Of a stretch of 64,000 bases of DNA, positions 7,295 to 61,398 are shown piece after piece. The stretch covers positions 32,001 to 96,000 of the forward strand of contig JBFIHX010000003.1 of assembly GCA_041601615.1 (NCBI GenBank), read 5' to 3'. Every line of letters starts with the position of its first letter. Position 1 is the first letter of the stretch. This DNA comes from Thermoplasmatota archaeon (GTDB taxonomy: Archaea; Thermoplasmatota; E2; JACPAO01; JAHFTW01). The position numbers and the translations under genes are program-made. The notes under the pieces were generated by a model that saw only the letters and a list, made by a program, of their open reading frames with translations, did not search any database and was not told the origin of the DNA.

Positions 7295-7365
7295 GCGCCT
7301 GTGGTCTAATGGTATGACGGTAGCTTCCCAAGCTACCTGCCCGGGTTCGATTCCCGGCGGGCGCA
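7295..7365 (+). tRNA. tRNA-Gly(CCC)
   Basis: Acceptor stem GCGCCTG/CGGGCGC, anticodon arm GTAGC-TTCCCAA-GCTAC, T-loop GGTTCGATTCC; no intron, no encoded CCA. Confidence 0.95.
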
Positions 7366-8728: not shown

Positions 8729-10009
8729 TTATGGGCGGCGTCGGGCAAGGACGAGGCCGGCGGCGAGGAGGCCTAGGAGGATGGTGCCGGTGGGTGCGGC
8801 GGGGCTGTCTTTTTTGGGTCCTGTGGCGTGGATGCGCTCGGTGCAGGCGTCGGGTCCGGGGCCTTGGCAGGATACGACGCGGCCGGTTCCGAGTTCGAAG
8901 TGGGCGGTGCCGGTGGCGGTGTCGCCGTGGAGGTTTTTGGCTTCCAAGTGGACGGTGTGGGGCGCTTTGTCGGGGGTGAGGTTCCAGGTCCAGGTGGGTG
9001 GTGGCAGGGGGCGCAGTGCGCGGTGGGTGGTGGGGGTTCCGGCGGGCTCGTCGTCGGTGGTGAGGGTGGGTGCGGCGAGGTCGTGGGCGCCCCAGGGGCT
9101 GGCGGCGATGGCGTGGATTTGGACGGTGCCATTGGCGGTTGGCGTAGGGCGTAGTTCTTGGATCCAGAGGGGGTTTTGGACGCCGAGGGTGAGGCTGGGG
9201 CGGAATGCGGGTGCGGTGTAGAGTCCGAGGAGATCGGGCATGAGGGTTGCTTCGTCGGGTCGGTCGCAGGTGGGAAAGTCGATGTAGACGTCGACGCGCA
9301 GGTTGAAGGCGGTGCTTGCTTGGATGGTGGGTTGGTTGGTGCGCCATTCCAGGGGGAGCCGGAAGGTGTAGACGGGGGCGTCGTCGGTTTCGTGGTAGGA
9401 GACGTTGGGGTGGCCTGCCAAGAGGGGGCTGAGGGTGGCGGGGCGGGTTTGTGCTTGGGCCAGGAGGGTGCCGGTGTCAAGGCTGTGGTGGCCGACGCTG
9501 ACGGCGCTGTCTTCGCGGAGGGTGGCGCGCAGTACAACGTTGGGGAGCACCATGGCGTCGGAGGGGGGTGGGACTCCGTCGATGGTGGTGGAGGTGCGGC
9601 CGGCTAGGTGCCAGACGAGGGTGGGTTGTTTTTCAAGGTCTAGTTCGAGGTTGAAGGCGAGGCCGCGGTCGATGAGGTCGGGGCCGGGGCGGTATGCGAC
9701 GGGGCCGGGCACGCCGTACCATGTGTGGTGGTTGCCGTAGAGTAGGGGCGGCGCTGGGGGGCCGACTAGACAGCGGTTGCTGTGGGTGAGGGCGTTGAGT
9801 CCGTACGTTGCGCGGTGGCTGTCGGGTACGGTTTGTGGGCTCATGGCGAAGTCTTGGATTCCGTCCACGTGGAGCCAGAGGGTGGTGTCGGTGGGGGGCG
9901 CGGGGTGGGTTTCTTGGGCGTTGGTGGCGGGTGCTAGGAGGGCCAGCAAGAGCAGGGTTGCTACCAGGGAGCGCGACCGCACCTTTCGGGAGTGTGCGTG
10001 GGGCTTCAT
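8729..10009 (-). CDS. Surface protein with a PGF-CTERM-like tail, paralogue 1
   Basis: Signal peptide; PNVVLRAT, SPWG motifs; C-terminal SPAAP-TM-RRRP. Confidence 0.75.
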   Translation of the reverse strand: MKPHAHSRKVRSRSLVATLLLLALLAPATNAQETHPAPPTDTTLWLHVDGIQDFAMSPQTVPDSHRATYGLNALTHSNRCLVGPPAPPLLYGNHHTWYGVPGPVAYRPGPDLIDRGLAFNLELDLEKQPTLVWHLAGRTSTTIDGVPPPSDAMVLPNVVLRATLREDSAVSVGHHSLDTGTLLAQAQTRPATLSPLLAGHPNVSYHETDDAPVYTFRLPLEWRTNQPTIQASTAFNLRVDVYIDFPTCDRPDEATLMPDLLGLYTAPAFRPSLTLGVQNPLWIQELRPTPTANGTVQIHAIAASPWGAHDLAAPTLTTDDEPAGTPTTHRALRPLPPPTWTWNLTPDKAPHTVHLEAKNLHGDTATGTAHFELGTGRVVSCQGPGPDACTERIHATGPKKDSPAAPTGTILLGLLAAGLVLARRRP

Positions 10010-10165
10010 GGTTCTTGTGGACTTGTTCACGGTGCTAGCAAGAGAGGGGTCGGAGATGTGGGCGGGGGATGGGGGATGGGCAGACGAATGGGTGGGGGAA
10101 GGGAGAGACGAAGAGGCGAAGGAAGGAGTGGAGGAAGGGGGTTGAGGGTGCCCAGGAACTTGGGG

Positions 10166-11530
10166 CTAGGTTCGACGCCGCAGGCTCACGGCGAGGGTGC
10201 CAAGGGCGAGCATCAGCAATCCGATGGGAGCAGCGGGGGTGGGGTTGGTCGGGCCGATAGGATCGTCGCAGGTTTCGGTACCGTCGGCGCCGGTGGAGCA
10301 AATGGGGCGGTTGTGTTCGCCGATTTCGAATTTGGCGATGGCGACGCTTTGGGCGGTTTCCTGGTCGTTGCTTACGCGAAGGGTGACGGTGTAGATGCCG
10401 GGGCGGGCGGATTCGGCTTTGTAGGGCCAGATCCAGCTGGCGGCGACGGCGTCGGTGTGGTGGTCGTGGTCGAGGGTGGCGGCGTCGAAGAAGCCCAGGT
10501 GCAGGTTGACGGGGACGCTTGGGCCGGTCACTTCGATGTTGTAGCTGCCGTTTTCGGAGGGTTGGTCGCCGCGCACGTCGTAGTTGCCCCAGGGGCTGTT
10601 GGCGGAGGTGTGGATGATCAGTTCGTCGCCGATGAATTGCGGGTGCAGGGATTCGATGCGGACGGCTTGTTCCACGTCCCAGGTGAAGCGGGGGCGGTGG
10701 CCAACGCTGCTGTGCAGGCGCACGGTGTTGGGCATCAGTTTCTCCTCGGAGCCGGGGTCGGCGCACTGGGGGTTTTCCATGTACAGGTCGATGCGCAGGT
10801 TGTAGGATTCGACGGCTTTGATCTGCGGGGAGCGACCGAGTTCGTCGAAGGGTACGTCGAGGGCGAATTCGTAGACGTGTTTTGTTTCGCCATCTTGGGT
10901 GATGGGCATGTAGGTGACTTGCGGGTGGTCGGGGGTGGCGGGGCCGACAAGAAGCGCTGGCGTGGTGGTGGCTTGGGCGATGATGCGGCCAATGTTGAGT
11001 GCCTCGTGTCCGACGCTGATGGCGTCTCCTTCACGGAACGTGGCGCGCAGGGCGACGTTGGGGGTGATGGAGGGCGCTGAGTTGACGTTGATGTCGTTGC
11101 TGAGGTATTGGCTTTCGACGTACCAGACGAGTCGGATGGGTTTGTCGGTGTCGAAGTCGATGTTGTAGCTGAGGCCGCGTTCGGGGTGGATGCGGGGGCT
11201 GCCGCCCATGTCCACGTCGTAATGGACGTAGCCGGGGCTGCTGTAGCCATACCAAGAATGGCGGTCGCCGCGCACGAGGCCGGGCACTTCGTCGGGGACA
11301 CAGGTGTTGGTCGTGGTTGTGAATCCTTGTCCTTGGCTGACTCCGTAGCGGTCGTCTGGTTGTTGGGTGTTGATGGGGTAGTCTTGGGGCAGTCCGAGGT
11401 GGACGAACATGGTCGTCGGGGCGGCGTTGGCCGGATTTTGGATGCCGGGCCATCCTTCGGTGGTTGCGGGGGAGGCGAGACCGGTTGGAGCCAGAAACAG
11501 GAGTACGAGTACGAAGACCCACGTTCGCAT
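10166..11530 (-). CDS. Surface protein with a PGF-CTERM-like tail, paralogue 2
   Basis: Signal peptide; INTQQPDDRY, YGYSSPGYV, HPERG, SPWGNYDVRGD; TPAAP-TM-RRRT. Confidence 0.8.
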   Translation of the reverse strand: MRTWVFVLVLLFLAPTGLASPATTEGWPGIQNPANAAPTTMFVHLGLPQDYPINTQQPDDRYGVSQGQGFTTTTNTCVPDEVPGLVRGDRHSWYGYSSPGYVHYDVDMGGSPRIHPERGLSYNIDFDTDKPIRLVWYVESQYLSNDINVNSAPSITPNVALRATFREGDAISVGHEALNIGRIIAQATTTPALLVGPATPDHPQVTYMPITQDGETKHVYEFALDVPFDELGRSPQIKAVESYNLRIDLYMENPQCADPGSEEKLMPNTVRLHSSVGHRPRFTWDVEQAVRIESLHPQFIGDELIIHTSANSPWGNYDVRGDQPSENGSYNIEVTGPSVPVNLHLGFFDAATLDHDHHTDAVAASWIWPYKAESARPGIYTVTLRVSNDQETAQSVAIAKFEIGEHNRPICSTGADGTETCDDPIGPTNPTPAAPIGLLMLALGTLAVSLRRRT

Positions 11531-11724
11531 GATGGTATCAGCGACGTCTGAGGCTTATAGATGCGATGGACACGTTGGCAAACGAATCTGGAAGTTCAAA
11601 AAATCGGCACAAGGGCGCGATGGAAACCAAGGACGGGACGAAAGGCAATGGAGGGCAATGGAAGGGGTTGGAAAGGATTGGAAGAGGGATGGAGTGGAAG
11701 GAGGAGGGTTGTGGGCGCAGGGGC

Positions 11725-13113
11725 CTACTTGCGGCGGCGCAGGGCCACGAGTGCGGCTCCGAGCACGGCGAGCACAGAGACGAAGCCAATGCCGGGGCTT
11801 TCTTGGTTCGCCTTGGCGCCGTCCTTCTGGACCGTCTCGTCGCAGTCAACCTTCTCGCCGGTGGCTTGGTTGCCGCAGCCGACGATCTTGCCGCTGCCGA
11901 TTTCGAATTGGGCCACCGCGATTGCTTCGGTGGTTTCTTGGTCGTTCTTGGCAGAGAACGTCACGGTGTAGAGGCCATCGCGGGCGCCGTCTTTCTTGTA
12001 TTCCCAGACCCAGGTTGCGTCCACCGCTTCTGTGTGGTGGTCGTGTTCGTGGGTGCGGGCCGTCAGGGCGACGCGGTTGATGCTCACGGGGACACTGGGG
12101 CCGGTAACGGTCACGGTGAGGCCGCCTTGGTCCTCGGAGGTTTGGTCGCCACGCACGTCGTAGTTGCCCCAGGGGCTGTTGGTGGACGTGTGCAGGACGA
12201 GGTCGTCGCCGATGAACTGCGGGTGCAGGTACTCGATGCGCAGCGGGTTGAAGATGTGCCAGGTGAAGCCGGGGCGGTTCTCCGGGCTGGTGTGCACGCG
12301 CAGGAAGTCAGGCATCAGGTAGTTGTCCTCTTGCGGTTTGTCGCAGGTGCCGGGCAGCGTCTCCATGTAGAAGTCGATGCGGGCGTTGTAGGACTCCATG
12401 GCGTCGATGGTGGTGCGTTGGTATTCGAGGGGGACGCGGAACTCGTAGATCGGAGCGCCGTTGCTGGCGGGACCGACGTAGTTGACGTTCGGGCTCGAGG
12501 TGCCGGCTCCTTGCAGGAGTGCAGGTTCCGTTTGGCCTTGGGCGATGATTTCGCCGGTGTTGAAGGCGGTGTGGCCGGGGCTGATTTGGTCGCCTTCGCG
12601 GATGGTGGCGCGCATGACGACGTTGGGCAACGGCGGGCTCAGGGAGTGGACGGGGACGCCGGCAGTGTCGCCGCCGGTGGCTTGTCCTTGCATGTACCAG
12701 ACGAAGTCGACGGGCTTGGAGGCGTCCATCTTGACGTCGAAACTGATGCCGCGTTCGGGGTGGTAGCGCGGTTCGCCGCCTTGGTCTACGTCGTATTGGA
12801 CGTATCCGGGGCTGCTGAAGCCGTAGTAGGTGTGCCGGGCGCCGCGCACGAGGGCGGGCACGGTCGGGTCGTTGACGCAGCCTTGGGAGTGCGTGGCGAG
12901 GCCGACGGGGACGTCCGAGGCGTAGCGGTCGTCGGGCTTCTGGGTGTTGATGGGGACATCCTGGAGCCCATTGATGTGGAAGTACATCTGGATGGGCGTG
13001 GAGGCGTTGGGATTGTAGATGCCCGGGGCCCGGGCGTCTTGTGCTGCGGCGCCGGTTGCGCCGAGCAAGAAGAGCCCTACGCAAAGGACTGTCAGGGTAC
13101 GGGACAGGAACAT
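11725..13113 (-). CDS. Surface protein with a PGF-CTERM-like tail, paralogue 3
   Basis: Same motifs; C-terminal ESPGIG-TM-RRRK. Confidence 0.8.
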   Translation of the reverse strand: MFLSRTLTVLCVGLFLLGATGAAAQDARAPGIYNPNASTPIQMYFHINGLQDVPINTQKPDDRYASDVPVGLATHSQGCVNDPTVPALVRGARHTYYGFSSPGYVQYDVDQGGEPRYHPERGISFDVKMDASKPVDFVWYMQGQATGGDTAGVPVHSLSPPLPNVVMRATIREGDQISPGHTAFNTGEIIAQGQTEPALLQGAGTSSPNVNYVGPASNGAPIYEFRVPLEYQRTTIDAMESYNARIDFYMETLPGTCDKPQEDNYLMPDFLRVHTSPENRPGFTWHIFNPLRIEYLHPQFIGDDLVLHTSTNSPWGNYDVRGDQTSEDQGGLTVTVTGPSVPVSINRVALTARTHEHDHHTEAVDATWVWEYKKDGARDGLYTVTFSAKNDQETTEAIAVAQFEIGSGKIVGCGNQATGEKVDCDETVQKDGAKANQESPGIGFVSVLAVLGAALVALRRRK

Positions 13114-13305
13114 GGTGACCATTCTCGGACGACTCGGCAGATGGCTTAACCCTTGTGGCACCGGCGACGAAACGTTCGGACGCCTTACCAAGGGCGTCTC
13201 GGAAGGGGGTGTGGGGGCAAACGGTTCACCCTGGGATGTTCAAGACAAAATAAGGGAGAAATGGCGGATCGTGGAGGGTGTTTCTCTGTTGTATGCCTGT
13301 GGGCT

Positions 13306-13822: not shown

Positions 13823-14028
13823 GGCGGTGATTTGCATGCTGGTGCTGTGGGAAAGTGCCTTGGGTGGCGAGATGGGCGCGACAAAATCCGAGGTCGGGGC
13901 CGAGGGCGGCCCAGGTTTGCACCGCGATATCGACGGCGGCCGTGGGTCAAAAAATTGCAAAATTGGATACTATTTTCCCTTCGCAAAACCTCCATCACTG
14001 GGCGGATGTAGTCGGCGGTGGGTATTCT

Positions 14029-14868
14029 ATGCTCACATCCATCAAGACCCTGACCACAATCTGTCTGCTGCTCGCCATTCTCCTGGCGCCTGCCGCGCAA
14101 GCAGAAGCGGAACCCGACGCCGCAATTCGTCCCGACTGTGAGCTGTCGCCTATGTGGCCCAGCGGCGGATTCGGCTGCCAAGTCGGCTCGCTGTGGGTTG
14201 GTTGCACGCACTACACCGGTGCCCTTCTGTTGCATGACCGTGACTCAATTGCTTGTGGCGTCTTCGGCTGCCCCTACATTGGGCAAGGCGAAGTGGGCCG
14301 CTCCGTGTACGCGGGCTTTGACGACTGCGTCGTGTACGCTGGGCACACGGGCTTGGACGATGTGAAATCGGCCCTCGCTGAGATTGTTGCGGATCCTGCC
14401 ACTCAATCGGATGCTTCCCCGGTTTCGTGCACCGCCAACCCCACAGCCCACGGCTGCACCGTTGACGTCACCGGCCGCGACACGGGAGTCCGCTGCGGCG
14501 TTCTATCCGTTGGCTACCAATGTGGCCTCCTTGGCTTCGATTGTGCCTCGGTTCTCTGGGGCATACACAACCCCGACTTCGTCGTCGGCGGCAACAACGG
14601 CTGCCATGCCAAAGTATGGGTCGGATTCCTACAACTTGGAGCCGCCCGGCCTGTTGACTGCACGCTGACTCCTGAAGCCCACGGCTGCACCAAGGAAATC
14701 GGCGGCCGAGATACGGGGGTCTACTGCGGAGCCATCACGGTTGGGTACAACTGCGGAATCAGGGGCTTCGACTGCACCCAGGCGCACTGGGGCATCCACC
14801 AGCCCGGCCTCGTAGTCGGCGGCTACAACGGCTGCCATGTCATGGCGTGGGTTGGCCTCCAAAGCTAA
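14029..14868 (+). CDS. Secreted Cys-rich protein with an internal tandem domain duplication
   Basis: Signal peptide ...APAAQA; two ~70-aa units CTxxPxAHGC...RDTGVxCG...GYxCG..GFDC...WGIHxP..VVGGxNGCH...WVG. Confidence 0.8.
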   Translation: MLTSIKTLTTICLLLAILLAPAAQAEAEPDAAIRPDCELSPMWPSGGFGCQVGSLWVGCTHYTGALLLHDRDSIACGVFGCPYIGQGEVGRSVYAGFDDCVVYAGHTGLDDVKSALAEIVADPATQSDASPVSCTANPTAHGCTVDVTGRDTGVRCGVLSVGYQCGLLGFDCASVLWGIHNPDFVVGGNNGCHAKVWVGFLQLGAARPVDCTLTPEAHGCTKEIGGRDTGVYCGAITVGYNCGIRGFDCTQAHWGIHQPGLVVGGYNGCHVMAWVGLQS

Positions 14869-14960
14869 CGCGAGTAGGCGCTGTTTTCCTTTTTTCCCGA
14901 CTTGGCTGGGTCGCTGCGAAACGGGGCACAGGTCGTGCGTGACCCCTTCGGATTTCTTTG

Positions 14961-15014
14961 CTATGCTTCGAGGATTCGTCGGCACTCGGCGAGGATTTTG
15001 CTTTCGTCGGGCAG
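14961..15014 (-). repeat. Synonymously recoded second copy of the pdhB 3' end (LPDESKILAECRRILEA*)
   Basis: Matches 15086-15139 (MPDESKILAECRRILAA*) at 15 of 17 residues; 12 of those 15 codons differ synonymously. Confidence 0.9.
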
Positions 15015-15044
15015 TCGCCAGCCCTTCGCTCGGGCAAGCTCCCA

Positions 15045-15136
15045 CCGGACGAGTCCGATTTTGGCCTAGCCTTGGAATCTCTTCGCTACGCTGCGAGAAT
15101 CCTGCGGCATTCGGCCAAAATCTTGGACTCATCCGG
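15045..15136. repeat. Inverted repeat enclosing the pdhB stop codon
   Basis: CCGGACGAGTCCGATTTTGGCC (15045-15066) is the near reverse complement of GGCCAAAATCTTGGACTCATCCGG (15113-15136). Confidence 0.75.
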
Positions 15137-16162
15137 CATATACCAGTGCTCACGCGCCAGCAAGGGCGTGTGGACATCGGGTGCGGCGACGAAGCCGACG
15201 GGGGCTTCGAGGGCGTAGAAGGCGTCGGATTCGTTGATGCGGCGGGTGATTTCGCTGCCCCAGCCACCGGAGCGGGGGGCTTCCTGGACGATGACGACCT
15301 TGCCGGTTTTCTTGACGGAGGCGATGATGGTTTCGCTGTCCATCGGGCTGATGGTTTGCAAGTCGAGGTAGTCGACGCTGACGCCATCGGCTTCCAGTTG
15401 GGCGACGGCCTTGTCGCAGAACCAGCGCATGGCGCCCCAGGTCACGAGCGTGAGGTCGGTGCCTTCCTGGACCACTTCGGTCTTCCTGAGTTCGGCTACT
15501 TCTTCGTCGAGGGGGACGGCTTCACGGTACTTGCGGTACAGGAACTTGGGCTCCATGAAGATCACGGGCTCGTCGCTGCGGATGGCGGCCTTCAGGAGGG
15601 CGCGTGCGTTGCGCGGGGTGCTTGGCATGACCACGGTGAGGCCGGGCGTGTGGGCGTAGTACGCTTCGCGCGACTCGCTGTGGTGTTCTAGGGCGCGGAC
15701 ACCGGCTCCGTAGGGCATGTGGATGACCATGGGGAGTTTGTGGCGGCCGTTGGTGCGCTTGAGGTAGCGGGCCATGTGCGATTCGTAGTGGTGCATCGCG
15801 TTGTAGGCGAAGCCACTGAATTGCATCTCGCCGATGGGGCGGTAGCCGGCGATGGCGAGGCCGGTGGCAGCACCCGCGATGGCCATTTCGCTAATCGGGG
15901 TGTCGAAGACGCGGTCGCGGCCGTATTTGTCAAAGAGGCCGTCGGTGAGGCGGAAGATGCCGCCGTCGCGTCCGACGTCTTCGCCGAGGATCATCACTTT
16001 GGGGTCACGGGCCATTTCTTCGTCGAAGGCCATGTTCATGGCTTCGATGAGGTTCAGTTCGACGGCGCCGGCTTCGTCGCATTCCTTCTGCTTCTTTTCG
16101 TATTGGACCTGCCAGGTGGGCTTGGTGTAGAATGGGTCCTCTTCTGCGTGAACCAAAGCCAT
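15086..16162 (-). CDS. pdhB: 2-oxoacid (pyruvate) dehydrogenase E1 beta subunit
   Basis: GEDVGRDGGIFR, RVFDTPISE, EMQFSGF, GAGVRALEHHSES, FMEPK. Confidence 0.92.
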   Translation of the reverse strand: MALVHAEEDPFYTKPTWQVQYEKKQKECDEAGAVELNLIEAMNMAFDEEMARDPKVMILGEDVGRDGGIFRLTDGLFDKYGRDRVFDTPISEMAIAGAATGLAIAGYRPIGEMQFSGFAYNAMHHYESHMARYLKRTNGRHKLPMVIHMPYGAGVRALEHHSESREAYYAHTPGLTVVMPSTPRNARALLKAAIRSDEPVIFMEPKFLYRKYREAVPLDEEVAELRKTEVVQEGTDLTLVTWGAMRWFCDKAVAQLEADGVSVDYLDLQTISPMDSETIIASVKKTGKVVIVQEAPRSGGWGSEITRRINESDAFYALEAPVGFVAAPDVHTPLLAREHWYMPDESKILAECRRILAA

Positions 16163-17268
16163 TAGTGAGCCCCCTCAGGTAGTCCGTGCTTTTCGAAATG
16201 AGCCAGAAGTTGCTCTTTTTGCCATGTCAAGTAGGGCGGCTCGTCGATGTAGGCGTTCTCGAACATGTAATCGGGAGTGCGGAGGGTTTTGGCCTTGGTC
16301 TCGAAGTCTTCGATGGCCTGGTCGATCTTGGCGTTGATGCGGGCGTCCATTTCTTCTTGCTTCTTGGCGTTCCACCAGCGTTTCTTGGTGAGGTACTTTT
16401 GGACGCGGTCGATGGGGTCTTTCTGGGCCCATTCTTCTTCCAGTGCCTTGGGTCGGTACTTGGAGGGGTCGTCCGCAGTGGTGTGGACGTTCATGCGGAA
16501 GGTCACGGCTTCGATGAGGGTGGGTCCTTCGCCGGCGCGGGCGCGGGCCACGGCGTCGCTTGTGGCTTTGATCATGGCCAGGAGGTCGTTGCCGTCCACT
16601 TGGATGCTGGGGATGCCGTAGGCGACTGCCTTTTGCGCGATGGTTTCGCTGACGGTTTGCCACTTGCGCGGGACGCTGATGGCCCATTGGTTGTTTTGGA
16701 TGACGAAGACGACGGGGGCCTTCAGGACGGCGGCCATGTTGATGGCTTCGTGGAAGTCGCCTTCGCTGGTGCTGCCGTCGCCGCCGTAGGTGATGGCGAT
16801 GTTCTTGGTGCCGTTTTTGACTTCGGCCCAGGCGGTGCCCAGTGCGTGGGTATACTGGGTGCCGATGGGGATGCAGATGGGGAGTACCTTGGCGTCGGGG
16901 GCGATGTTCATGCCCTCTTCGAATCCGGCGGCGTACAGCAGGTCGTCGACGGGGTCGGCGCCGCGGTGGAGGTAGCAGACGGATTCACGGAAGCTGGGGC
17001 AGAGCCAGTCGTCGTTGGTGGTGCAGTAGATGCTGCCTGCTTGGGCGGCTTCTTGGCCGTGGGCGGGGGCGAAGGTGCCAATGCGGCCTTGGCGTTGGAG
17101 CTTGAGGCGGCGGTGGTCCCATTGGCGGCTGAAGCTCATCAGTTCGTAGAGCTGTAGCAGGTCTTCTTTGGGCACCTTGGGGTCGAGTTTCGCGTCGACG
17201 GTGCCGTCGGCTGCGAGGATCGATAGGTGTTGAATCGGGGGTGGCGCGTACGCGGTCGTGATGGGCAT
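16162..17268 (-). CDS. pdhA: 2-oxoacid (pyruvate) dehydrogenase E1 alpha subunit
   Basis: QRQGRIG...GQEAAQ; TPP motif GDGSTSEGDFHE...NNQWAIS; HTTADDP. Confidence 0.92.
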   Translation of the reverse strand: MPITTAYAPPPIQHLSILAADGTVDAKLDPKVPKEDLLQLYELMSFSRQWDHRRLKLQRQGRIGTFAPAHGQEAAQAGSIYCTTNDDWLCPSFRESVCYLHRGADPVDDLLYAAGFEEGMNIAPDAKVLPICIPIGTQYTHALGTAWAEVKNGTKNIAITYGGDGSTSEGDFHEAINMAAVLKAPVVFVIQNNQWAISVPRKWQTVSETIAQKAVAYGIPSIQVDGNDLLAMIKATSDAVARARAGEGPTLIEAVTFRMNVHTTADDPSKYRPKALEEEWAQKDPIDRVQKYLTKKRWWNAKKQEEMDARINAKIDQAIEDFETKAKTLRTPDYMFENAYIDEPPYLTWQKEQLLAHFEKHGLPEGAH

Positions 17269-17440: not shown

Positions 17441-17932
17441 TCAGGTGTCTGTGGCTGGGGGGGAGCGGTAGGCGGTGCAGAGGAGGGCTGCAAACAGGCC
17501 GAGTGCGCCCAGAAGCAGGAGCACGTTGCCGGTGGCGGGGTGGTCCCAGCGCAGGTAGGCGCCAAGTGCTGCGAGGATGCCAGCGGCAAGGGCGGGGCGG
17601 GCCCAGGGCCAGAGCACGAGTGCGGTGCCGAGGTGGACGAGGCTGGGGCCGGTGAGGGCGATTGCGTCGAGGGGGAGTCGGGGGACGACGTTGTGGCCGA
17701 TGAGCGCGGTGGCGGCGCCGGCGACCACGAATGGGAATGCGAGGTAGCCATAGCGGGAGGTGGCGGCCAGGATCATGCCGAGGCCGGAGAGGGTGCCTCC
17801 GAGGGCAAAGAAGATCCAGTAGAATCCTGGTTCGGCGGTGTCTGTGAGTGCGAGGGTGGCGCGGACGGCGACCACGAGCGGGGCCAGCGTCATCATCCAA
17901 AGGCCGGGGGCAAGAAGCCGGGTTCGGTCCAC
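17441..17932 (-). CDS. Integral membrane protein
   Basis: Five to six hydrophobic helices in the 3' part of ORF 17441..18640. Confidence 0.6.
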   Translation of the reverse strand: MDRTRLLAPGLWMMTLAPLVVAVRATLALTDTAEPGFYWIFFALGGTLSGLGMILAATSRYGYLAFPFVVAGAATALIGHNVVPRLPLDAIALTGPSLVHLGTALVLWPWARPALAAGILAALGAYLRWDHPATGNVLLLLGALGLFAALLCTAYRSPPATDT

Positions 17933-17958
17933 GGTTGGGCGCGAGTCGGACAGGGTCT

Positions 17959-18594
17959 TCAGCTTGCCGTGCCGGTGTCGCTGCGGGCAATACGGTCGAG
18001 GACAAGGCGGGCAAGCTCCTCGTTTTGGCGAAGGGTGGTTTGGTCGGCGCGTTGGCCTTGCCAGACTGTGTCGATCGTGCCGTTGGCGTCGATGAAGAGG
18101 GTGACGGGTTGGTATTCGACTTGCAAGAGTGGCCGAATGTGGTCGTCGGGGTCCCACCATTGGGTACCGGGAGCTTCGGCTGCTTCCTTGCGCATGGCGT
18201 CTTCGAATCGATTTGAGTCGATGCTGACGCTGATGAAGTCCACGCGGTCGCCGTATTCGGAAAAGAGTCGGTGCATGGAGGGTTCTTCGGCCTCGCAAAC
18301 GGCGCACCAGCTGGCCCAGATATGCAACAGCACTGGGCGGCCCTTGTGGTCGGCAAGTGTGACCTCGTTGCCGTCCAAATCTTGGCTTATGTAGGGTGGC
18401 GCGGCTTGCCCTTCGAGTGCATGGCCGGAGCGGCCCAGCGTCTCGGCTGGTGGCATGGGGTCCGAGATTGGATTGGGCTGTGTGCATCCTGAGAGCGCGA
18501 GAACCAAGGCCAAGGTCCAACCAAGGAGGGGCGCCACGATGGGAGCAGCCGAACGCGGGACGGGCACCCTCGAACTTTGCGCTGCGCATCCCAT
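17959..18594 (-). CDS. TlpA/ResA-like thiol-disulfide oxidoreductase lipoprotein
   Basis: Lipobox LSGC; WASWCAVC; YQPVTLFIDANG; start codon uncertain. Confidence 0.85.
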   Translation of the reverse strand: MGCAAQSSRVPVPRSAAPIVAPLLGWTLALVLALSGCTQPNPISDPMPPAETLGRSGHALEGQAAPPYISQDLDGNEVTLADHKGRPVLLHIWASWCAVCEAEEPSMHRLFSEYGDRVDFISVSIDSNRFEDAMRKEAAEAPGTQWWDPDDHIRPLLQVEYQPVTLFIDANGTIDTVWQGQRADQTTLRQNEELARLVLDRIARSDTGTAS

Positions 18595-18801
18595 AATCGT
18601 TGCCCCAACTACGAGGGGTGGGTGCCGACGCCTCGACCAAGTTTGGTCGTTGATGCTGAGGGAAGGCTATATGTTTCGAATCGACGCCGTATTTTTTGTT
18701 TGAGCTGCGGGGGGCGGGTAATGAAATGGCTAGAGGTGCATAATTCGATGATAAGGAAACGTTGCGCCGGTACTAAATTGCCCGCAGATGGTATCGGGCC
18801 G

Positions 18802-19701
18802 ATGAACGCAAAACACTTCATCCTCGCCATGACGCTGATGCTCGTGGGCCTCGGTTCGCCCCTCATCAATGCGTCTCCCCTGACGACTACCTCGGAGTAT
18901 CACGAATACATCCTGAACGACATGGACACGGGACACATTGATGTCATCATCATCCCGTCCGCCAGCCCCTGGGCGCTGCGCGACATCAGCACCATCGAAG
19001 ACGCCCTGCAAGGCTGGGAAGATGGCATCCAAAGCAGCCTCAGTCCTGCCTGGCTCTCCAGCGGCTTCAGCATGGACATTTACACGCTCGGCTACGACGA
19101 CATCCCATCCGATGCCCTCTCGGACCCCGAAATCGTTGTGGTGGCCGCTGAAGTCAACCCCTTCCTGTTGTTCGGCATCGGCTACGGCGTCCCCATCGGC
19201 TTCTGCAGCGCCTTCAACCCTCTGGACCCGAGCATCTGGCAGCAGCACACCGGCAGTGACTGGGCCTACGCCAGCGCCGCCTGCAAGAGCGGTGGCAACC
19301 AGTGCATTGCGCTCAACACCAACTTCCTCCACATGGACGGTCCCTTTGTCACCATCAACGGCGGCAAGGGCGAGCGCCGCATGTACGACCTCGTCGCCCA
19401 CGAAATCGGCCACTGCCTCGGCATTGGTCACGTCGGAGACGCACTGGACTTCAGCACCACGATCTTCCCGAACAAGGACATCATGAGCTACCAGTACAAC
19501 AGCAACCAAGTGTTCTGCGTCAGCAGCCTCAACATCAAGAGCCTGCAAGGAGTCTACGCGGACGCCATCCCCGGCGCCCCCAGCTCCGCGACTCAGCCGC
19601 GCTACACCGGCGGCGAATTCGTCCACCTGCCTGTCGGGGACTACAGCCAAGTATCGTGCAGCAACCCGGACAACCTCAACGATCTTCCGCCCCTCCTCTG
19701 A
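18802..19701 (+). CDS. Secreted metzincin-like zinc metalloprotease, paralogue 1
   Basis: Signal peptide; HEIGHCLGIGH plus Met-turn DIMSY. Confidence 0.8.
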   Translation: MNAKHFILAMTLMLVGLGSPLINASPLTTTSEYHEYILNDMDTGHIDVIIIPSASPWALRDISTIEDALQGWEDGIQSSLSPAWLSSGFSMDIYTLGYDDIPSDALSDPEIVVVAAEVNPFLLFGIGYGVPIGFCSAFNPLDPSIWQQHTGSDWAYASAACKSGGNQCIALNTNFLHMDGPFVTINGGKGERRMYDLVAHEIGHCLGIGHVGDALDFSTTIFPNKDIMSYQYNSNQVFCVSSLNIKSLQGVYADAIPGAPSSATQPRYTGGEFVHLPVGDYSQVSCSNPDNLNDLPPLL

Positions 19702-39531: not shown

Positions 39532-39576
39532 TTAGTACGGCCTCTTCGGTTTGCCAGCACCCGCGTCAAAATTCCA
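39532..39576 (-). repeat. Second copy of the thyX 3' end (WNFDAGAGKPKRPY*)
   Basis: 25 bp identical (39534-39558 vs 39668-39692) with similarity extending to WKGFDAAAGKPKRPY*; offset 134 bp. Confidence 0.85.
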
Positions 39577-39665
39577 TCCACACCCGGGGGCGCTGCCCCC
39601 AGGGAATCCCCCGGGCGCGGCGCTCGCTGTGCTCGGCCCCGCTGTTCGACCGATGCGGTGCATCA

Positions 39666-41387
39666 TCAGTACGGCCTCTTCGGTTTGCCAGCGGCGGCAT
39701 CGAACCCTTTCCAAACTTTGACCCCGCACCATCGTGGTCCCTCGGGGCAGCAAGCGGCCACGTTGTCTTGCATCTCGGGGGGCTGGGCGGCGGCTACGAA
39801 GCTACACGGAGGCCCAAGCCAGCGCGTCAACTCAGGGTGGACCGCTTGGACTTGGCGCAGTTCGTCGAGTGCGGCGTCGAAGATCTCCTTCTGGGCGTTG
39901 AAGCAGAGGCGCAGGCGCCATTTGTGGATCCAGCTGAGCAAGTCGCCGCTTTGGGTGTAGTAGATGTTGGTGGCGTTGGGCAGCAGATACGCGGCGTCTT
40001 CGCGGGGGATGCCGAGTGCAATCAGTTTGTGCATGGCTTCCCAAAGGGTCGCAACCGTGTCGTCGTAGGTGGCCAGGGCGTCTTCGTCGCCCGTGATGAC
40101 GCTAGGGACGTACACGTCGGGCGCCTCACTGATGCAGCGGTGCAGCAGCGGGCGGGTGCCAGGCGTCATGCGGTGGCGTTGGTCTTGGGCGTAGGCTGTC
40201 AGACTCTGGCGTTTGTGGAATGTGTAGTGGACGTGGCGCAGGCAGCGCAGCACGGGGCTGTGGTCCCAGGTGTTGAGGGTGTCGTTCCAGACGCGGTTGG
40301 CGGCGGGGTCGAGCACGGCCGGCAGAATCTCGTTGTCGGGGAGGCCGGAGCCCGTGACTTCGCGAATGGCGTCGGAGACTAGGTTTGCCGCGTGGGGTGT
40401 AGCGTGCAGGAGCTTGCTGGTGCGGCCTTCGAGGTCCATGGTGGGGCGCACCGGTTCGTTGGTGCTGAGGCTCCATTCCACGAGGTCGTCACGCGCGTGG
40501 GGCGCTTCGTCGAGGGCGTCCATGAACTTGGGGTCCACGGCGTGTACTGCTTCGACCATGGCGTCCACCACGGCGCGGGCCTCGGCGCTTGCGTTTTGGG
40601 CGTTGGCCATGCGCACGTAGCGCATCAAGACGATGCCGCTGATCGTGTGGTAGAGCTTCGTGGTGGCCGCCACCGGCACGACGTACCGCGCCATTTCCTG
40701 CGCCTTCTTTTCGGCCTCCGTTGTGATTTGCTTGGCGCTTTGACCTTTGATGCGGCCGATGGCACCCATCACATTCTCGTTCGGAACCACCAGACGTTCT
40801 CGAAGGTCGTGGTAGCCATCCCAAGCAGCGCCGACGGCGTGCTCGTACACGGCGCGGGCAGTGGGGTCTGCGGCGACGGTGGCGGGGACGTGCACCTCCG
40901 CGTGCTTCATCTCGACGTAGCGCTGGCTTTGCTGCTCGGAGTTGTAGAAGGTGTGCTGGTGCAGGAACGACTCCACGACGTTGCGGCTGACTCCTTCGAG
41001 CGCGAACACAAACGTCGGGTGCTGAAACGGCGTGTGGTGGCCGGCTTCGTAGATGCTGCGGGCGATGCGTTCGTCGTTGGGAGCTCGCTGGCGAGCAAGG
41101 TCCGCGAATACGGCGAGGGCGTTGCGGGTCTCGTCGTCGGGTGCCGAGGTAGAGACCGCGTCGACGAGTTCGATGCGGCGCTCATGGGGGGTGCCGGGGT
41201 CGCCTATCTCGTCCAATTGCGCCTGCCACCGAGGGAGCGCTTCCAGGAGCGTCGTGCGGGTACGCTCTCCTTTGGGCGTCAACTGGTGCACGAACACAAA
41301 GTCGGCGGCATAGCAAGTCCGAGCACTTGCCACGGCCAAACCGTATGGATCGTGGGTGTAGGCCACCAGGGAAACGGAAGGCTCCAT
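39666..41387 (-). CDS. thyX: FAD-dependent thymidylate synthase, two-domain ThyX/Thy1 type
   Basis: ARTCY, GHHTPFQH, EQQSQRY, ARYVVP; second unit QDQRHR, YLLPNA, RLCFNAQKEI. Confidence 0.8.
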   Translation of the reverse strand: MEPSVSLVAYTHDPYGLAVASARTCYAADFVFVHQLTPKGERTRTTLLEALPRWQAQLDEIGDPGTPHERRIELVDAVSTSAPDDETRNALAVFADLARQRAPNDERIARSIYEAGHHTPFQHPTFVFALEGVSRNVVESFLHQHTFYNSEQQSQRYVEMKHAEVHVPATVAADPTARAVYEHAVGAAWDGYHDLRERLVVPNENVMGAIGRIKGQSAKQITTEAEKKAQEMARYVVPVAATTKLYHTISGIVLMRYVRMANAQNASAEARAVVDAMVEAVHAVDPKFMDALDEAPHARDDLVEWSLSTNEPVRPTMDLEGRTSKLLHATPHAANLVSDAIREVTGSGLPDNEILPAVLDPAANRVWNDTLNTWDHSPVLRCLRHVHYTFHKRQSLTAYAQDQRHRMTPGTRPLLHRCISEAPDVYVPSVITGDEDALATYDDTVATLWEAMHKLIALGIPREDAAYLLPNATNIYYTQSGDLLSWIHKWRLRLCFNAQKEIFDAALDELRQVQAVHPELTRWLGPPCSFVAAAQPPEMQDNVAACCPEGPRWCGVKVWKGFDAAAGKPKRPY

Positions 41388-60341: not shown

Positions 60342-60420
60342 CTATTCGGGTACGATTGCCTTTCCGAGGGCGCTTGCGATGAGGCCTACGGCAAATTTCC
60401 CAGTCTTGTTTTCGGTGTCC
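60342..60420 (-). repeat. Second copy of the arginase 3' end (DTENKTGKFAVGLIASALGKAIVPE*)
   Basis: 71 bp identical (60343-60413 vs 60488-60558); flanking codons differ synonymously (GAC ACC vs GAT ACA; TAG vs TAA); offset 145 bp. Confidence 0.92.
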
Positions 60421-60486
60421 GAGCGACCTTGAAAAAGGTCGATCATTTTGGGCGGCTCTCGGCTTCGCCTCGGCCACCCCGCAGCC

Positions 60487-61398
60487 TTATTCGGGTACGA
60501 TTGCCTTTCCGAGGGCGCTTGCGATGAGGCCTACGGCAAATTTCCCAGTCTTGTTTTCTGTATCGAGCAGTGGGTTGGCTTCGACGAATTCCATGCTGGT
60601 TACGAGGTCGGTCTCGGCGAGCATTTCGAGCGCGAGGTGGGATTCTCGGTAGGTGAGGCCGCCGTCGACTTTGGTGCCGGTGCCGGGGGCCCAGCGCGGG
60701 TCCACGGCGTCCAAATCGAAGCTCAAGTGGACTTGTTTTACGCCTCGGGACGCGATGGACATCGCTTCGTCCATGACTTTCTTCATGCCGTGTTCGTCGA
60801 TGTCGCGCATGGTGAAGTAGTGGGCGCCGCTGGCTTGCAACAGCTCAGCCTCCTTGGCGTCCACATCGCGCAGGCCCACGAGGACGGTGTTTTCGGCGCG
60901 CAATTTGGGGCCGGGGCGGTCGAAGTCGGCGAGTCGCGGGTGGCCGATGCCGAGGGCGGCGCTCACGGGCATGCCGTGGATGTTGCCGCTTGGGCTGGTC
61001 TCGTGGGTGTTGAAGTCGGCGTGGGCGTCAAACCAGATCATGCCGCGGTCGGTGGAGCCGCGAGCAAGGCCGGCTTGTGTGCCGATAGCGATGCTGTGGT
61101 CGCCGCCGAGTACGATGGGCATGACGCCGTCCTTCATCGCTTCCTCTACTTTGTCGGCAAGTTCCGTGCAAGCCGCCAAGATTTCGTCGGCATAGCGCAG
61201 CTTCGGGTCGCCCACGTCGCCGGTCTGTTCCAGTTCCGGGGTCCAGACATTGCCGGCGTCCTGGACAGTGTAGCCGAGGGCGCGGATGCGGTCGTGCAGG
61301 CGGGCGGCCCGGATGGCGCTGGGGCCCATGTCGACGCCGCGGCGGCTGGCGCCAAGGTCAAGCGGGACGCCGATGACGCGGACGGTCTCGATGCTCAT
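60487..61398 (-). CDS. rocF: Arginase
   Basis: RGVDMGP, GGDHS, DAHAD, SGNIHGMP, SFDLDAVDP, PGTGT, VEANP. Confidence 0.93.
   Translation of the reverse strand: MSIETVRVIGVPLDLGASRRGVDMGPSAIRAARLHDRIRALGYTVQDAGNVWTPELEQTGDVGDPKLRYADEILAACTELADKVEEAMKDGVMPIVLGGDHSIAIGTQAGLARGSTDRGMIWFDAHADFNTHETSPSGNIHGMPVSAALGIGHPRLADFDRPGPKLRAENTVLVGLRDVDAKEAELLQASGAHYFTMRDIDEHGMKKVMDEAMSIASRGVKQVHLSFDLDAVDPRWAPGTGTKVDGGLTYRESHLALEMLAETDLVTSMEFVEANPLLDTENKTGKFAVGLIASALGKAIVPE

What the first reader, a model, noticed from the sequence alone, without database searches (positions are those of the whole stretch)
14961..15139. pdhB C-terminus duplicated with near-saturated synonymous recoding plus an antisense copy
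Gene end: ATG CCG GAT GAG TCC AAG ATT TTG GCC GAA TGC CGC AGG ATT CTC GCA GCG TAG. Downstream copy: CTG CCC GAC GAA AGC AAA ATC CTC GCC GAG TGC CGA CGA ATC CTC GAA GCA TAG. Fifteen of 17 residues are identical but 12 of those codons differ, so both versions have been under protein-level selection. The downstream copy looks more like host codon usage (C/A-ending), while the in-gene version uses GAT, ATT, TTG and AGG. Inference: the downstream copy is the displaced original and the current end came from elsewhere. Between them, 15045-15066 is an inverted copy of the in-gene version, giving a potential mRNA hairpin around the stop codon.
Basis: partly seen in the sequence, partly recalled or inferred. 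Interest (0 to 1): 0.75.

Follow-up and report, generated by a model that had tools for sequence, protein, structure and literature searches.

The report
Spare gene end behind stop-codon hairpin
The last 17 codons of an archaeal dehydrogenase gene are kept a second time just downstream, untranslated and spelled with other codons, behind a conserved hairpin that holds the stop codon; the layout recurs at about one gene in a hundred in this genome and has no agreed explanation.

Summary
The E1-beta gene (minus strand, 15086-16162) ends with 17 codons (S1). These pair with an antisense copy (A) just past the stop codon. Then come a short module (E) and an untranslated second copy of the 17 codons plus stop (S2, 14961-15014). 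S2 has 15 of 17 identical residues and 12 synonymously different codons.

It is not a one-off.
- 9 of 14 assessable pdhB orthologs in this Thermoplasmatota family carry such a copy.
- The stop-centred hairpin covaries across 8 sequences.
- 19 of 1977 genes in this genome show a gene-end echo, against 0 in three controls.
- Per-run contigs from 4 of 4 DNA runs bridge both copies.

In congener G002 the live end is of the S2 nucleotide type, while its A still fits the G000-type S1. So S2 has overwritten a live end there.

Both types are old, and S1 is no further from relatives' ends than S2.

My best reading is a hairpin-driven copy unit that is inherited and partly conserved, with a silent spare end that exchanges with the live one. 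Why S2 evolves like coding DNA is unexplained.

This scan noted the same kind before, in this genome and in other taxa. I found no published description in three literature searches.

The parts
16162..17268 (-). E1 alpha subunit gene of a 2-oxoacid dehydrogenase (pdhA-like), overlapping the start of the beta gene by one base
   Evidence: Translation. Pfam E1_dh, E 1.9e-82.
15086..16162 (-). E1 beta subunit gene (pdhB-like), 358 codons plus TAG
   Evidence: Translation. Pfam Transket_pyr 4.4e-43 and Transketolase_C 7.8e-31. Substrate specificity was not tested.
15086..15139 (-). S1: the live last 17 codons plus the stop codon (stop at 15086-15088); 5' arm of the stop-centred hairpin
15045..15085 (-). 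A: antisense copy of S1. The basal 22 nt (15045-15066) are near-perfect with a 2-nt bulge. The apical part (15067-15085) is degenerate.
   Evidence: Own-versus-cross complementarity. Covariation.
15013..15043 (-). E: short module with conserved ends (GGGAGC ... GGCTGGCGACT) around a small variable stem-loop; abuts S2
   Evidence: Pattern hit at G000:C3:47013-47043. The same module type sits between a sequence and its copy at the aaRS-like gene of G000, at pdhB of G002, at a gene end in G001 and after a tRNA in G016.
14961..15014 (-). S2: untranslated second copy of the 17 codons plus TAG, in a frame shifted by 2 relative to the gene
   Evidence: There is no ATG/GTG/TTG in its 34-codon open frame (read).
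14945..14960 (-). Short echo, after S2, of the first bases that follow the live stop codon. This suggests that the copied unit ran past the stop.
   Evidence: Seen by eye (about 13 of 16 alike); not tested statistically.
13855..14868 (+). Convergent open reading frame that bounds the intergenic region; no family match
   Evidence: Its 3' part aligns with G002 downstream of that genome's S2.

Best explanation
The E1-beta gene of this Thermoplasmatota archaeon ends inside a heritable 'gene-end hairpin unit'.

Layout:
- The last 17 codons (S1) pair with an antisense copy placed right after the stop codon (A). The stop codon therefore sits at the tip of a hairpin of about 95 nt.
- A small module with conserved ends (E) follows.
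- Then comes an untranslated sense copy of the same 17 codons plus stop (S2).

Shown here:
- The layout is real DNA.
- It is shared by most genera of the family at this gene.
- The hairpin keeps its pairing through compensatory changes.
- The A-E block is far better conserved than silent sites.
- The same kind of unit stands behind about 1% of this genome's genes.
- In a congener, the S2 type has replaced the live end.

Inferred:
- The sense-antisense-sense order and the tandem reiteration arose by replication template switching or slippage at hairpins. This would be a miniature inverted triplication or an insertion with long target duplication.
- S1/A complementarity is kept up by template-switch homogenisation and/or by selection for a 3'-end structure of the mRNA.
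- S2 is a silent spare that exchanges with live ends, by gene conversion within the genome and probably by recombination with relatives whose live end is of the S2 type. That exchange would be why it still reads like a working gene end.
For: Reality.

Family-wide at pdhB:
- 8 of 13 orthologs (>=77% identity) with enough downstream sequence carry 1-3 downstream copies at scores 47-73 (threshold 22).
- One metagenome contig adds a ninth (score 40), giving 9 of 14.
- G001 is not assessable because only 26 nt are held after its stop.
- None of 37 rows of more distant homologs has a same-strand copy.

Hairpin:
- z is -7.55.
- On an alignment of 8 sequences, 11 of 21 pairs show compensatory changes.
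- 79.8% of cells are paired against 67.3% in shuffles (0 of 500 reach it).
- The covariation score is 0.418 against 0.239 (0 of 500). Slid controls give 29-58%.
- A genome's own S1 is the best partner of its own downstream 60 nt in 8 of 10 module-bearing genomes.

Conversion:
- G002's live end differs from G000 S2 at 5 of 54 nt but from G000 S1 at 14.
- G002's A fits G000's S1 (score 27), not its own (13) (sequence).

Conservation between G000 and G002:
- A-E has 1 substitution plus one 5-nt indel in 71 nt.
- Third codon positions of the gene are 73-74% identical, and the DNA after S2 is unalignable.
- At an acyl-CoA-dehydrogenase-like gene, the equivalent block is 74 of 78 identical against 72% at third positions.

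Genome-wide:
- 19 of 1977 gene ends are echoed, against 0 in three controls.
- Only 3 of 1939 gene starts are echoed upstream.
- Arrays of 3-4 units, each with its own matching antisense arm, occur at other genes.
- At one gene, G000 and G002 carry unrelated A-E blocks in front of alignable S2 and downstream DNA. These are independent events.

Enzymes: no Y1 transposase, reverse transcriptase or Cas1 was found in this 93%-complete genome. This favours host replication or repair as the maker.

Literature: template switching is reported to create and maintain hairpin stems with multi-base compensatory changes (PMC8794818, abstract read).
Against: - S1 and S2 differ at nearly all silent sites but at only 2 residues. 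S2 orthologs in G000 and G002 differ at 8 nt, of which 7 are silent. A neutral relic should decay about three times faster at non-silent sites. Gene conversion alone cannot give few non-synonymous differences alongside saturated synonymous ones (my reasoning).
- S2 is no further from relatives' live ends in non-synonymous differences than S1 is.
- Mismatches in the S1/A stems show no RNA-strand wobble bias: 6 G.U against 3 A.C, with 22 transversions. Selection on an RNA hairpin is therefore not shown.
- Stop-centred palindromes are not a general habit of this genome's genes: 17 observed against 11 permuted at score >=24.
- E of pdhB has only a 4-bp stem (read).
- In G002, A stays 98% like G000's although it no longer fits its own S1. 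This sits oddly with 'A is kept for pairing'.
- All DNA support comes from one study.
- No RNA data were available.
Confidence: 0.5

Rival explanations
1. Replacement or displacement by a tiny insert. A unit of about 125 nt (recoded S1 + A + E) entered in front of the native gene end and supplied a working surrogate end. The native end (S2) was pushed downstream, as integrating elements and rhs 'C-terminal displacement' do. On this view the units move between related lineages.
For: - G000 S2 is at ortholog-like distance from G002's live end (5 of 54 nt).
- At the aaRS-like gene, G002 has no copy, and its live end is closer to G000 S2 (10 differences, all silent) than to S1 (13).
- At C5+51663, G000 and G002 carry unrelated A-E blocks in front of alignable S2 plus downstream DNA. 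In G002 it is S1 that is recoded, including a TCN-to-AGY serine switch.
- The A-E block is nearly identical between species whose silent sites differ by 26%.
- The E module type recurs at different genes in genera g1 and g7.
- rhs tips are reported to be displaced by laterally acquired alternatives through recombination with circular intermediates (PMC2935791, abstract read).
- Insertions with long, variable target duplications and no mobility gene are on record (PMC2853133, passages read).
Against: - The S1 type is the live end in G001 and G003 at ortholog-like distances.
- G003 also holds an S2-type copy, and G002's A fits the S1 type. The pair therefore predates these splits.
- Over six loci, S1 is closer to relatives' ends in 13 of 27 comparisons and S2 in 9, with 5 ties.
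- Codon usage gives no consistent foreign signal.
- A is specific to the locus, so the unit cannot be a general-purpose element.
- There is no ORF in the insert, and no Y1 transposase, RT or Cas1 in the genome.
Confidence: 0.25
2. S2 is under direct selection. It could be a repair or replacement cassette for a gene end that lies in a fragile or functional palindrome. Or it could become the coding end in part of the population after deletion or rearrangement, so that it is 'seen' by selection as protein.
For: - The divergence of S2 is biased to silent sites between G000 and G002 (7 of 8; by my binomial estimate p is about 0.003 if sites were hit evenly).
- S2 keeps the lineage's residue at the variable third position while using a codon from the other serine family.
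- An S2-to-S1 replacement did happen in G002.
- In class-II loci, S2 tracks its own S1 across species: 0 differences in 75 nt in G000 and 3 in 71 in G002, while the orthologs are only 74% identical.
Against: - Frame offsets of the copies relative to the gene are 0, 1 or 2.
- There is no start codon in S2's open frame.
- A 5-nt indel in E between G000 and G002 shifts the upstream frame.
- G003's S2 has lost its stop and carries several non-synonymous changes, and G007's is degenerate. Selection is therefore not universal.
- No joined form appears in the contigs, though contigs drop rare variants.
Confidence: 0.15
3. Chance resemblance or an assembly artefact that put two strain alleles in tandem.
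For: The copies differ as alleles of two strains would, and the genome is a metagenome bin.
Against: - 0 of about 2000 control comparisons reach score 40, against 67 here.
- Per-run contigs of 4 of 4 runs bridge both copies.
- The same layout is present in independent assemblies of other genera and in a JGI metagenome contig.
- The antisense arm and E lie between the copies, which an allele collapse would not make.
Confidence: 0.01

Closest known systems
Short-range template-switch (quasipalindrome) mutations and inverted triplications (PMC8794818, abstract read; PMC4689423 and PMC8604942, search listing only; the Salmonella 'tandem inversion duplication' is recalled, not read)
   Same: - The order is sense, antisense, sense.
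- Hairpins stand at the junctions.
- The stems keep pairing through multi-base compensatory changes.
- No dedicated enzyme is needed.
   Different: - The segment is always a gene's last codons plus stop.
- The units are inherited across genera and reiterated.
- The outer sense copy stays coding-like instead of decaying.
Insertion with long target duplication (Nobusato/Furuta/Kobayashi; PMC2853133, passages read)
   Same: - An insert without a mobility gene is flanked by direct repeats of tens of bases and of variable length.
- Several of the published repeats overlap a gene's 3' end.
   Different: - The published inserts are kilobase restriction-modification genes in bacteria, with near-identical repeats.
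- Here the insert is 71 nt of hairpin DNA in an archaeon, and the repeats differ at most silent sites.
C-terminal displacement at rhs loci (PMC2935791, abstract read) and integrating elements that carry a surrogate gene end (e14 in icd; recalled, not read)
   Same: A new gene end sits in front of the old one. The old end stays downstream, and arrays of displaced ends build up.
   Different: - rhs tips encode different toxins, and integrating elements are kilobases long with an integrase.
- Here all copies encode the same peptide, and no recombinase is attached.
REP/BIME, MITE-like and palindromic repeats of prokaryotes
   Same: These are small GC-rich hairpin modules with family-like conserved ends, dispersed behind genes.
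   Different: - No Y1/RAYT transposase is present.
- The E type has only 2 copies in this genome.
- The modules come with a copy of the neighbouring gene end.

Membership tests
2-oxoacid dehydrogenase E1 beta subunit (the gene itself) | Transketolase-like pyrimidine-binding and C-terminal domains, next to an E1 alpha gene | tested here: met
   Pfam PF02779 4.4e-43 and PF02780 7.8e-31. The neighbour has PF00676 at 1.9e-82. Pyruvate specificity ('pdhB') was not tested.
Template-switch / inverted-triplication product | Sense-antisense-sense order of one segment | tested here: met
   S1 15086-15139, A 15045-15085, S2 14961-15014.
Template-switch / inverted-triplication product | Both junctions lie at short inverted repeats that pre-exist in the unrearranged sequence | tested here: inconclusive
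   A loop and the E stem-loop stand at the two junctions. The four orthologs without the module (G014, G018, G004, G011) are too diverged to serve as an empty site.
Insertion with long target duplication | Direct repeats >30 bp flank the insert and match one copy in an insert-free relative | tested here: inconclusive
   The 54-nt repeats are present but only 69% identical. There is no clean empty site for pdhB. At C5+51663, S2 plus the downstream DNA align with the relative while the inserts are unrelated.
Integrative element with surrogate gene end | Recombinase gene and element-sized insert between the two gene ends | tested here: not met
   Only 71 nt lie between the stop and S2, with no ORF.
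REP/RAYT or IS200/IS605-derived palindromic elements | Y1 (HUH) transposase in the genome and many copies of one palindrome family | tested here: not met
   PF01797 gives 0 hits in G000 (93% complete), while the control genomes are positive. The E type has 2 copies in G000.
Diversity-generating retroelement (template/variable repeat at a gene's 3' end) | Reverse transcriptase nearby, and differences confined to adenines of the template | tested here: not met
   PF00078 gives 0 hits in G000. The differences involve all four bases (read).
Cas1-type integration (casposon or CRISPR repeat duplication) | Cas1/casposase gene and a duplication of fixed length | tested here: not met
   PF01867 gives 0 hits. 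The copied lengths vary from about 4 to 67 codons.
rhs-type C-terminal displacement | Displaced tips encode alternative, different C-termini acquired laterally | tested here: not met
   All copies encode the same peptide. Stacked arrays do exist, for example 3 copies in G012.
Known RNA family | Match to an Rfam model at its gathering score | tested here: not met
   The only match in the window is a tRNA at 7295-7365. In 14850-15200 there is one sub-threshold chance hit (23.2 bits against a gathering score of 40).

The most novel reading that the evidence does not exclude
Untranslated, synonymously re-spelled spare copies of essential gene ends are kept under coding-type purifying selection. 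They are used as templates to renew the live end, which lies in a conserved stop-codon hairpin. This would be a cassette-like backup, or a homing system of tiny hairpin units. It is inherited across genera of Thermoplasmatota and, by earlier notes of this scan, has look-alikes in DPANN archaea, Patescibacteria, methanogens and giant viruses.
Probability: 0.15. Interest if true: 0.85.

Novelty: new variant of a known kind. Interest (0 to 1): 0.6.

Why it matters
- If the spare ends are only scars, they are still a clean natural record. They would show how hairpins make small inverted and tandem duplications in archaea, and how a coding sequence can be drawn into a conserved stem with its stop codon at the tip.
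- If they are kept by selection, this would be information stored as protein-coding sequence without being translated, and then used to rewrite a live gene. No described system does that for ordinary housekeeping genes.
- There is also a practical point for annotation. These echoes can be mistaken for pseudogenes, strain-collapse artefacts or small ORFs.
- The A-E blocks are candidate 3'-end signals in a phylum where transcript-end formation is poorly known.

Tried and rejected
- Rfam: nothing fits the region.
- RNA evidence: no RNA holder was listed for the stretch. Expression, 3' ends and splicing could therefore not be looked at.
- Translation of S2: rejected as a readthrough or frameshift product. 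The frame offsets are 0, 1 or 2 across genomes, its open frame has no start codon, and a 5-nt indel lies upstream in G002.
- DGR, Y1-transposase, RT and Cas1 routes: rejected (and reading).
- 'S2 is the ancestral version': no general signal.
- 'S1 has foreign codon usage': no general signal.
- RNA-strand wobble bias in the stems: no signal.
- Loop-orientation census of intergenic hairpins: no signal.
- Stop-centred palindromes as a genome-wide habit: not seen. pdhB is nevertheless the top score, and 4 of the top 9 are loci with recoded copies.
- Paralog as donor: the second E1-beta gene (contig 11, 44% identity) has a different C-terminus.
- The metagenome scan gave only one further ortholog with its 3' end.
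- The family holds only 32 genomes in the collection, 16 of them with the ortholog. Denser sampling was not possible.
- Literature: three full-text searches listed no paper describing recoded gene-end copies behind hairpins. Three other searches failed on wording. Supplements were not consulted.
The comparison was then made from the stored files by coordinates.
Full report
WHAT IS THERE

On the minus strand, an E1-alpha gene (16162-17268) and an E1-beta gene (15086-16162) of a 2-oxoacid dehydrogenase stand head to tail (Pfam). Record titles of the closest contigs name the lineage as uncultured Thermoplasmatota archaea. The window itself is unnamed.

The beta gene ends with 17 codons and TAG at 15139-15086 (S1). 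Downstream lie, in order:
- A, an antisense copy of S1. It is near-perfect over 15045-15066 with a 2-nt bulge and degenerate towards the stop codon.
- E, a short module at 15013-15043 with the ends GGGAGC and GGCTGGCGACT.
- S2, a second sense copy of the 17 codons plus TAG at 15014-14961.

S1 and S2 share 15 of 17 residues. Twelve codons differ synonymously, two non-synonymously, and three are identical. One serine is spelled TCC in S1 and AGC in S2.

S1 and A fold into a hairpin with the stop codon in its apical part. As RNA it folds at -57.9 kcal/mol, z -7.55. As DNA it folds at -28.2, z -5.27. None of 200 shuffles is as good in either case. The 221-nt context gives z -4.12.

IS IT MORE THAN CHANCE OR ARTEFACT?

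A six-frame search of the whole genome with the protein picks up S2 unprompted.

I ran a census on a crude ORF set: 2267 ORFs of at least 120 codons, from my own greedy caller. The last 15 residues recur within 300 nt downstream on the same strand at BLOSUM score >=40 in 19 of 1977 genes. The controls give:
- 0 of 2010 for an internal peptide;
- 0 of 1977 for the reversed peptide;
- 0 of 1977 on the opposite strand;
- 3 of 1939 for the first 15 residues searched upstream.

pdhB scores 67. At least one of the 19 (contig 5, +116347) is a spurious ORF over tandem tRNA-like repeats, judged by eye. Those scoring 40-43 are doubtful.

Logan contigs of 4 of 4 DNA runs cover both copies in one piece with 0-1 other letters. 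All runs come from one study, and three may be the source of this assembly.

THE SAME GENE IN RELATIVES

The family holds 32 genomes in the collection, and 16 have the ortholog. Thirteen of these have the 3' end and at least 100 nt downstream. Eight of them carry one to three downstream copies: G000, G002, G003, G005, G021, G010, G012 (three copies) and G020 (two copies). Scores are 47-73. A JGI metagenome contig (84% identity) adds a ninth of 14 (score 40).

The remaining orthologs:
- G014, G018, G004 and G011 have no copy.
- G007 has A and a hairpin but only a degenerate remnant of S2.
- G001's contig ends 26 nt after the stop.

None of 37 rows of more distant homologs, bacterial ones and the archaeal paralog included, has a same-strand copy. 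Frame offsets of the copies relative to the gene are 0, 1 or 2. Ten of twelve copies end in a stop codon.

THE HAIRPIN IS KEPT LINEAGE BY LINEAGE

Each genome's own S1 is the best of 15 S1 sequences against its own first 60 downstream bases in G000, G003, G005, G021, G007, G020, G012 and the metagenome contig. That is 8 of the 10 module-bearing genomes. G010 ranks second.

For G002's downstream arm, the best partner is G000's S1 (score 27), not its own (13).

On an alignment of eight sequences, RNAalifold predicts 21 pairs, 11 of them with compensatory changes. The controls are:
- 79.8% of cells paired against 67.3% in shuffles (0 of 500 reach it);
- a covariation score of 0.418 against 0.239 (0 of 500);
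- 29-58% paired when partners are slid by 1-3 columns.

Related sequences can beat shuffles without any structure. The slid controls are therefore the stronger support.

Mismatches in 12 stems show 6 G.U, 3 A.C and 22 transversions. Nothing says that the stem is selected as RNA rather than renewed as DNA.

WHAT G002 SHOWS

G002 is in the same genus. Its E1-beta protein is 95-96% identical to G000's. It has the same A-E block, with one substitution and one 5-nt indel in 71 nt. Third codon positions of the gene are only 73-74% identical, and the DNA after S2 cannot be aligned.

Yet G002's live end is of the S2 nucleotide type: 5 of 54 nt differ from G000 S2, against 14 from G000 S1. The switch begins exactly where S2 begins. 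Its A still fits the G000-type S1.

The simplest reading is that S2 overwrote S1 in the G002 lineage. This shows that S2 can become the live end.

G001 and G003 carry the S1 type as their live end. G003 also has an S2-type copy, which has lost its stop and carries several non-synonymous changes. Both types therefore predate the split of genera g1 and g2.

The tests give the following.
- Against ten relatives' live ends, S1 is closer in five, S2 in three, with two ties. Over six loci the figures are 13, 9 and 5 of 27. Silent sites are close to saturated at this depth, so polarity cannot be read from them.
- S2 does use commoner codons at pdhB (8 of 12; index 0.745 against 0.529). Both values lie inside the background, at the 85th and 33rd percentiles. 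An aaRS-like gene shows the opposite (13 of 16 for S1). The sum over 12 loci is 42 against 35.

So protein-level selection on both versions, and the hairpin, are supported. A recent foreign origin of S1 is not.

THE WIDER HABIT

Other genes of this genome show two layouts.

First layout: S1-A-E-S2, with copies that differ mostly at silent sites.
- The aaRS-like gene on contig 5 has 16 synonymous and 1 non-synonymous codon differences.
- An acyl-CoA-dehydrogenase-like gene on contig 4 has 6 and 0. It has three units, the third identical to the first over 36 nt, and each unit has its own matching antisense arm.
- The gene at C5+51663 has 4 and 0.

These and pdhB are four of the nine best stop-centred palindromes in the genome.

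Second layout: near-identical copies around dispersed hairpin-element families. One family (fam1) also occurs in G002 and G007.

Summed over the 19 loci, there are 81 synonymous against 42 non-synonymous codon differences. This count is biased, because I found the copies by protein similarity.

Relatives show the same habit at the same genes.
- G001 has four units behind the aaRS-like gene, spelling the last five codons in three ways. G007 has three units. G002 has none.
- The dehydrogenase-like array is shared by G000 and G002. Its first non-coding block is 74 of 78 identical, against 72% at third positions.
- At C5+51663 the two species have unrelated A-E blocks in front of alignable S2 and downstream DNA. 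These are independent events at one gene. In G002 it is S1 that is re-spelled.

The E type of pdhB gives 6 hits in 5 of 32 family genomes. The reversed-pattern control gives 2 hits. Five of the six hits lie between a sequence and its copy: pdhB in G000 and G002, the aaRS-like gene in G000, a gene end in G001 and a tRNA flank in G016. The sixth, in G008, is at a contig start and has no hairpin.

The genome (93% complete) has no Y1 transposase, reverse transcriptase or Cas1.

HOW IT MOST LIKELY WORKS

Shown:
- The unit is real and heritable.
- It is partly conserved. The A-E block changes at least five times more slowly than silent sites at two of two orthologous loci.
- It is reiterated.
- S2 exchanges with the live end.

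Inferred:
- The unit arises by template switching or slippage at hairpins during replication. Switching would give the sense-antisense-sense order. Slippage would give the tandem arrays.
- The stem is renewed by the same process or by selection on a 3'-end structure.
- S2 is a silent spare.

Left open: why S2 looks like a working gene end.
- G000 and G002 S2 differ at 8 nt, 7 of them silent. My binomial estimate is p about 0.003 if sites were hit evenly.
- S2 carries no more non-synonymous differences to relatives than S1 does.
- Conversion between S1 and S2 cannot by itself give few non-synonymous differences together with saturated silent ones (my reasoning).
- Three routes remain possible: refreshment from genomes whose live end is of the S2 type, repeated swapping, or direct selection on a spare cassette. 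I cannot choose among them.

COMPARISON WITH WHAT IS KNOWN

The nearest concepts are:
- short-range template-switch mutation (PMC8794818, abstract read);
- inverted triplication (PMC4689423, search listing only);
- insertion with long target duplication (PMC2853133, passages read);
- C-terminal displacement at rhs loci (PMC2935791, abstract read).

None of these describes same-peptide, re-spelled gene ends stacked behind a stop-centred hairpin. Three full-text searches listed no such paper.

This scan has noted the kind before. In this same genome the earlier notes cover rps7, polB, glutaredoxin and five loci in one window. There is also a note on a relative's E1-beta gene, and notes on other taxa. 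Those notes gave me the two literature leads. I tested their general claims here, but they are not independent evidence.

VERDICT

The feature is real and non-random. It is one member of a lineage-wide class. I place it as a new variant of known kinds of hairpin-driven duplication and gene-end displacement, with one unexplained property: coding-like evolution of an untranslated copy.

Noticed in passing
window 60342-60534 (minus): A small gene ends at 60487. Its last 15+ codons recur, identical apart from the stop codon (TAA against TAG), at 60342-60389. A dispersed double-hairpin element (fam1) lies between the copies. Copies of fam1 also occur in G002 and G007.
   Followed up: partly
window 39532-39704 (minus): A gene end (12 codons) is echoed 95 nt downstream: 8 identical codons, 3 synonymous and 1 non-synonymous difference. 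A GC hairpin spacer lies between.
   Followed up: partly
G000 contig 4, locus L104 (minus strand), about 500-760 in gene orientation: An acyl-CoA-dehydrogenase-like gene is followed by three gene-end units. Unit 3 is identical to unit 1 over 36 nt. Unit 2 is spelled differently at 6 of 10 codons with no residue change. Each unit has its own matching antisense arm. G002 shares the array.
   Followed up: partly
L113 (G001) and L115 (G007), downstream of the aaRS-like gene: Four units (G001) and three units (G007) re-encode the last five codons plus stop, with different codons. One G001 unit shares a 14-mer with G007's live end.
   Followed up: partly
G000 contig 5, locus L100; contig 1, locus L101: There are tandem arrays of [gene end + hairpin element], with periods of about 113 and 119 nt, behind a long gene and a GAPDH-like gene. 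In near-identical pairs elsewhere (L098, L099, L108), the stop codon is the base that differs between the copies.
   Followed up: no
window 7295-7365 (plus): tRNA gene (Rfam RF00005, 65.8 bits).
   Followed up: no
G000 contig 11, locus L002: A second E1-beta paralog (44% identity) with a different C-terminus and no downstream echo.
   Followed up: partly
window 13855-14868 (plus) and other long ORFs at 9992-13149 and 17441-19701: None of five long ORFs around the operon has a Pfam match at E<=0.001. The convergent ORF is conserved in G002 and G007.
   Followed up: no
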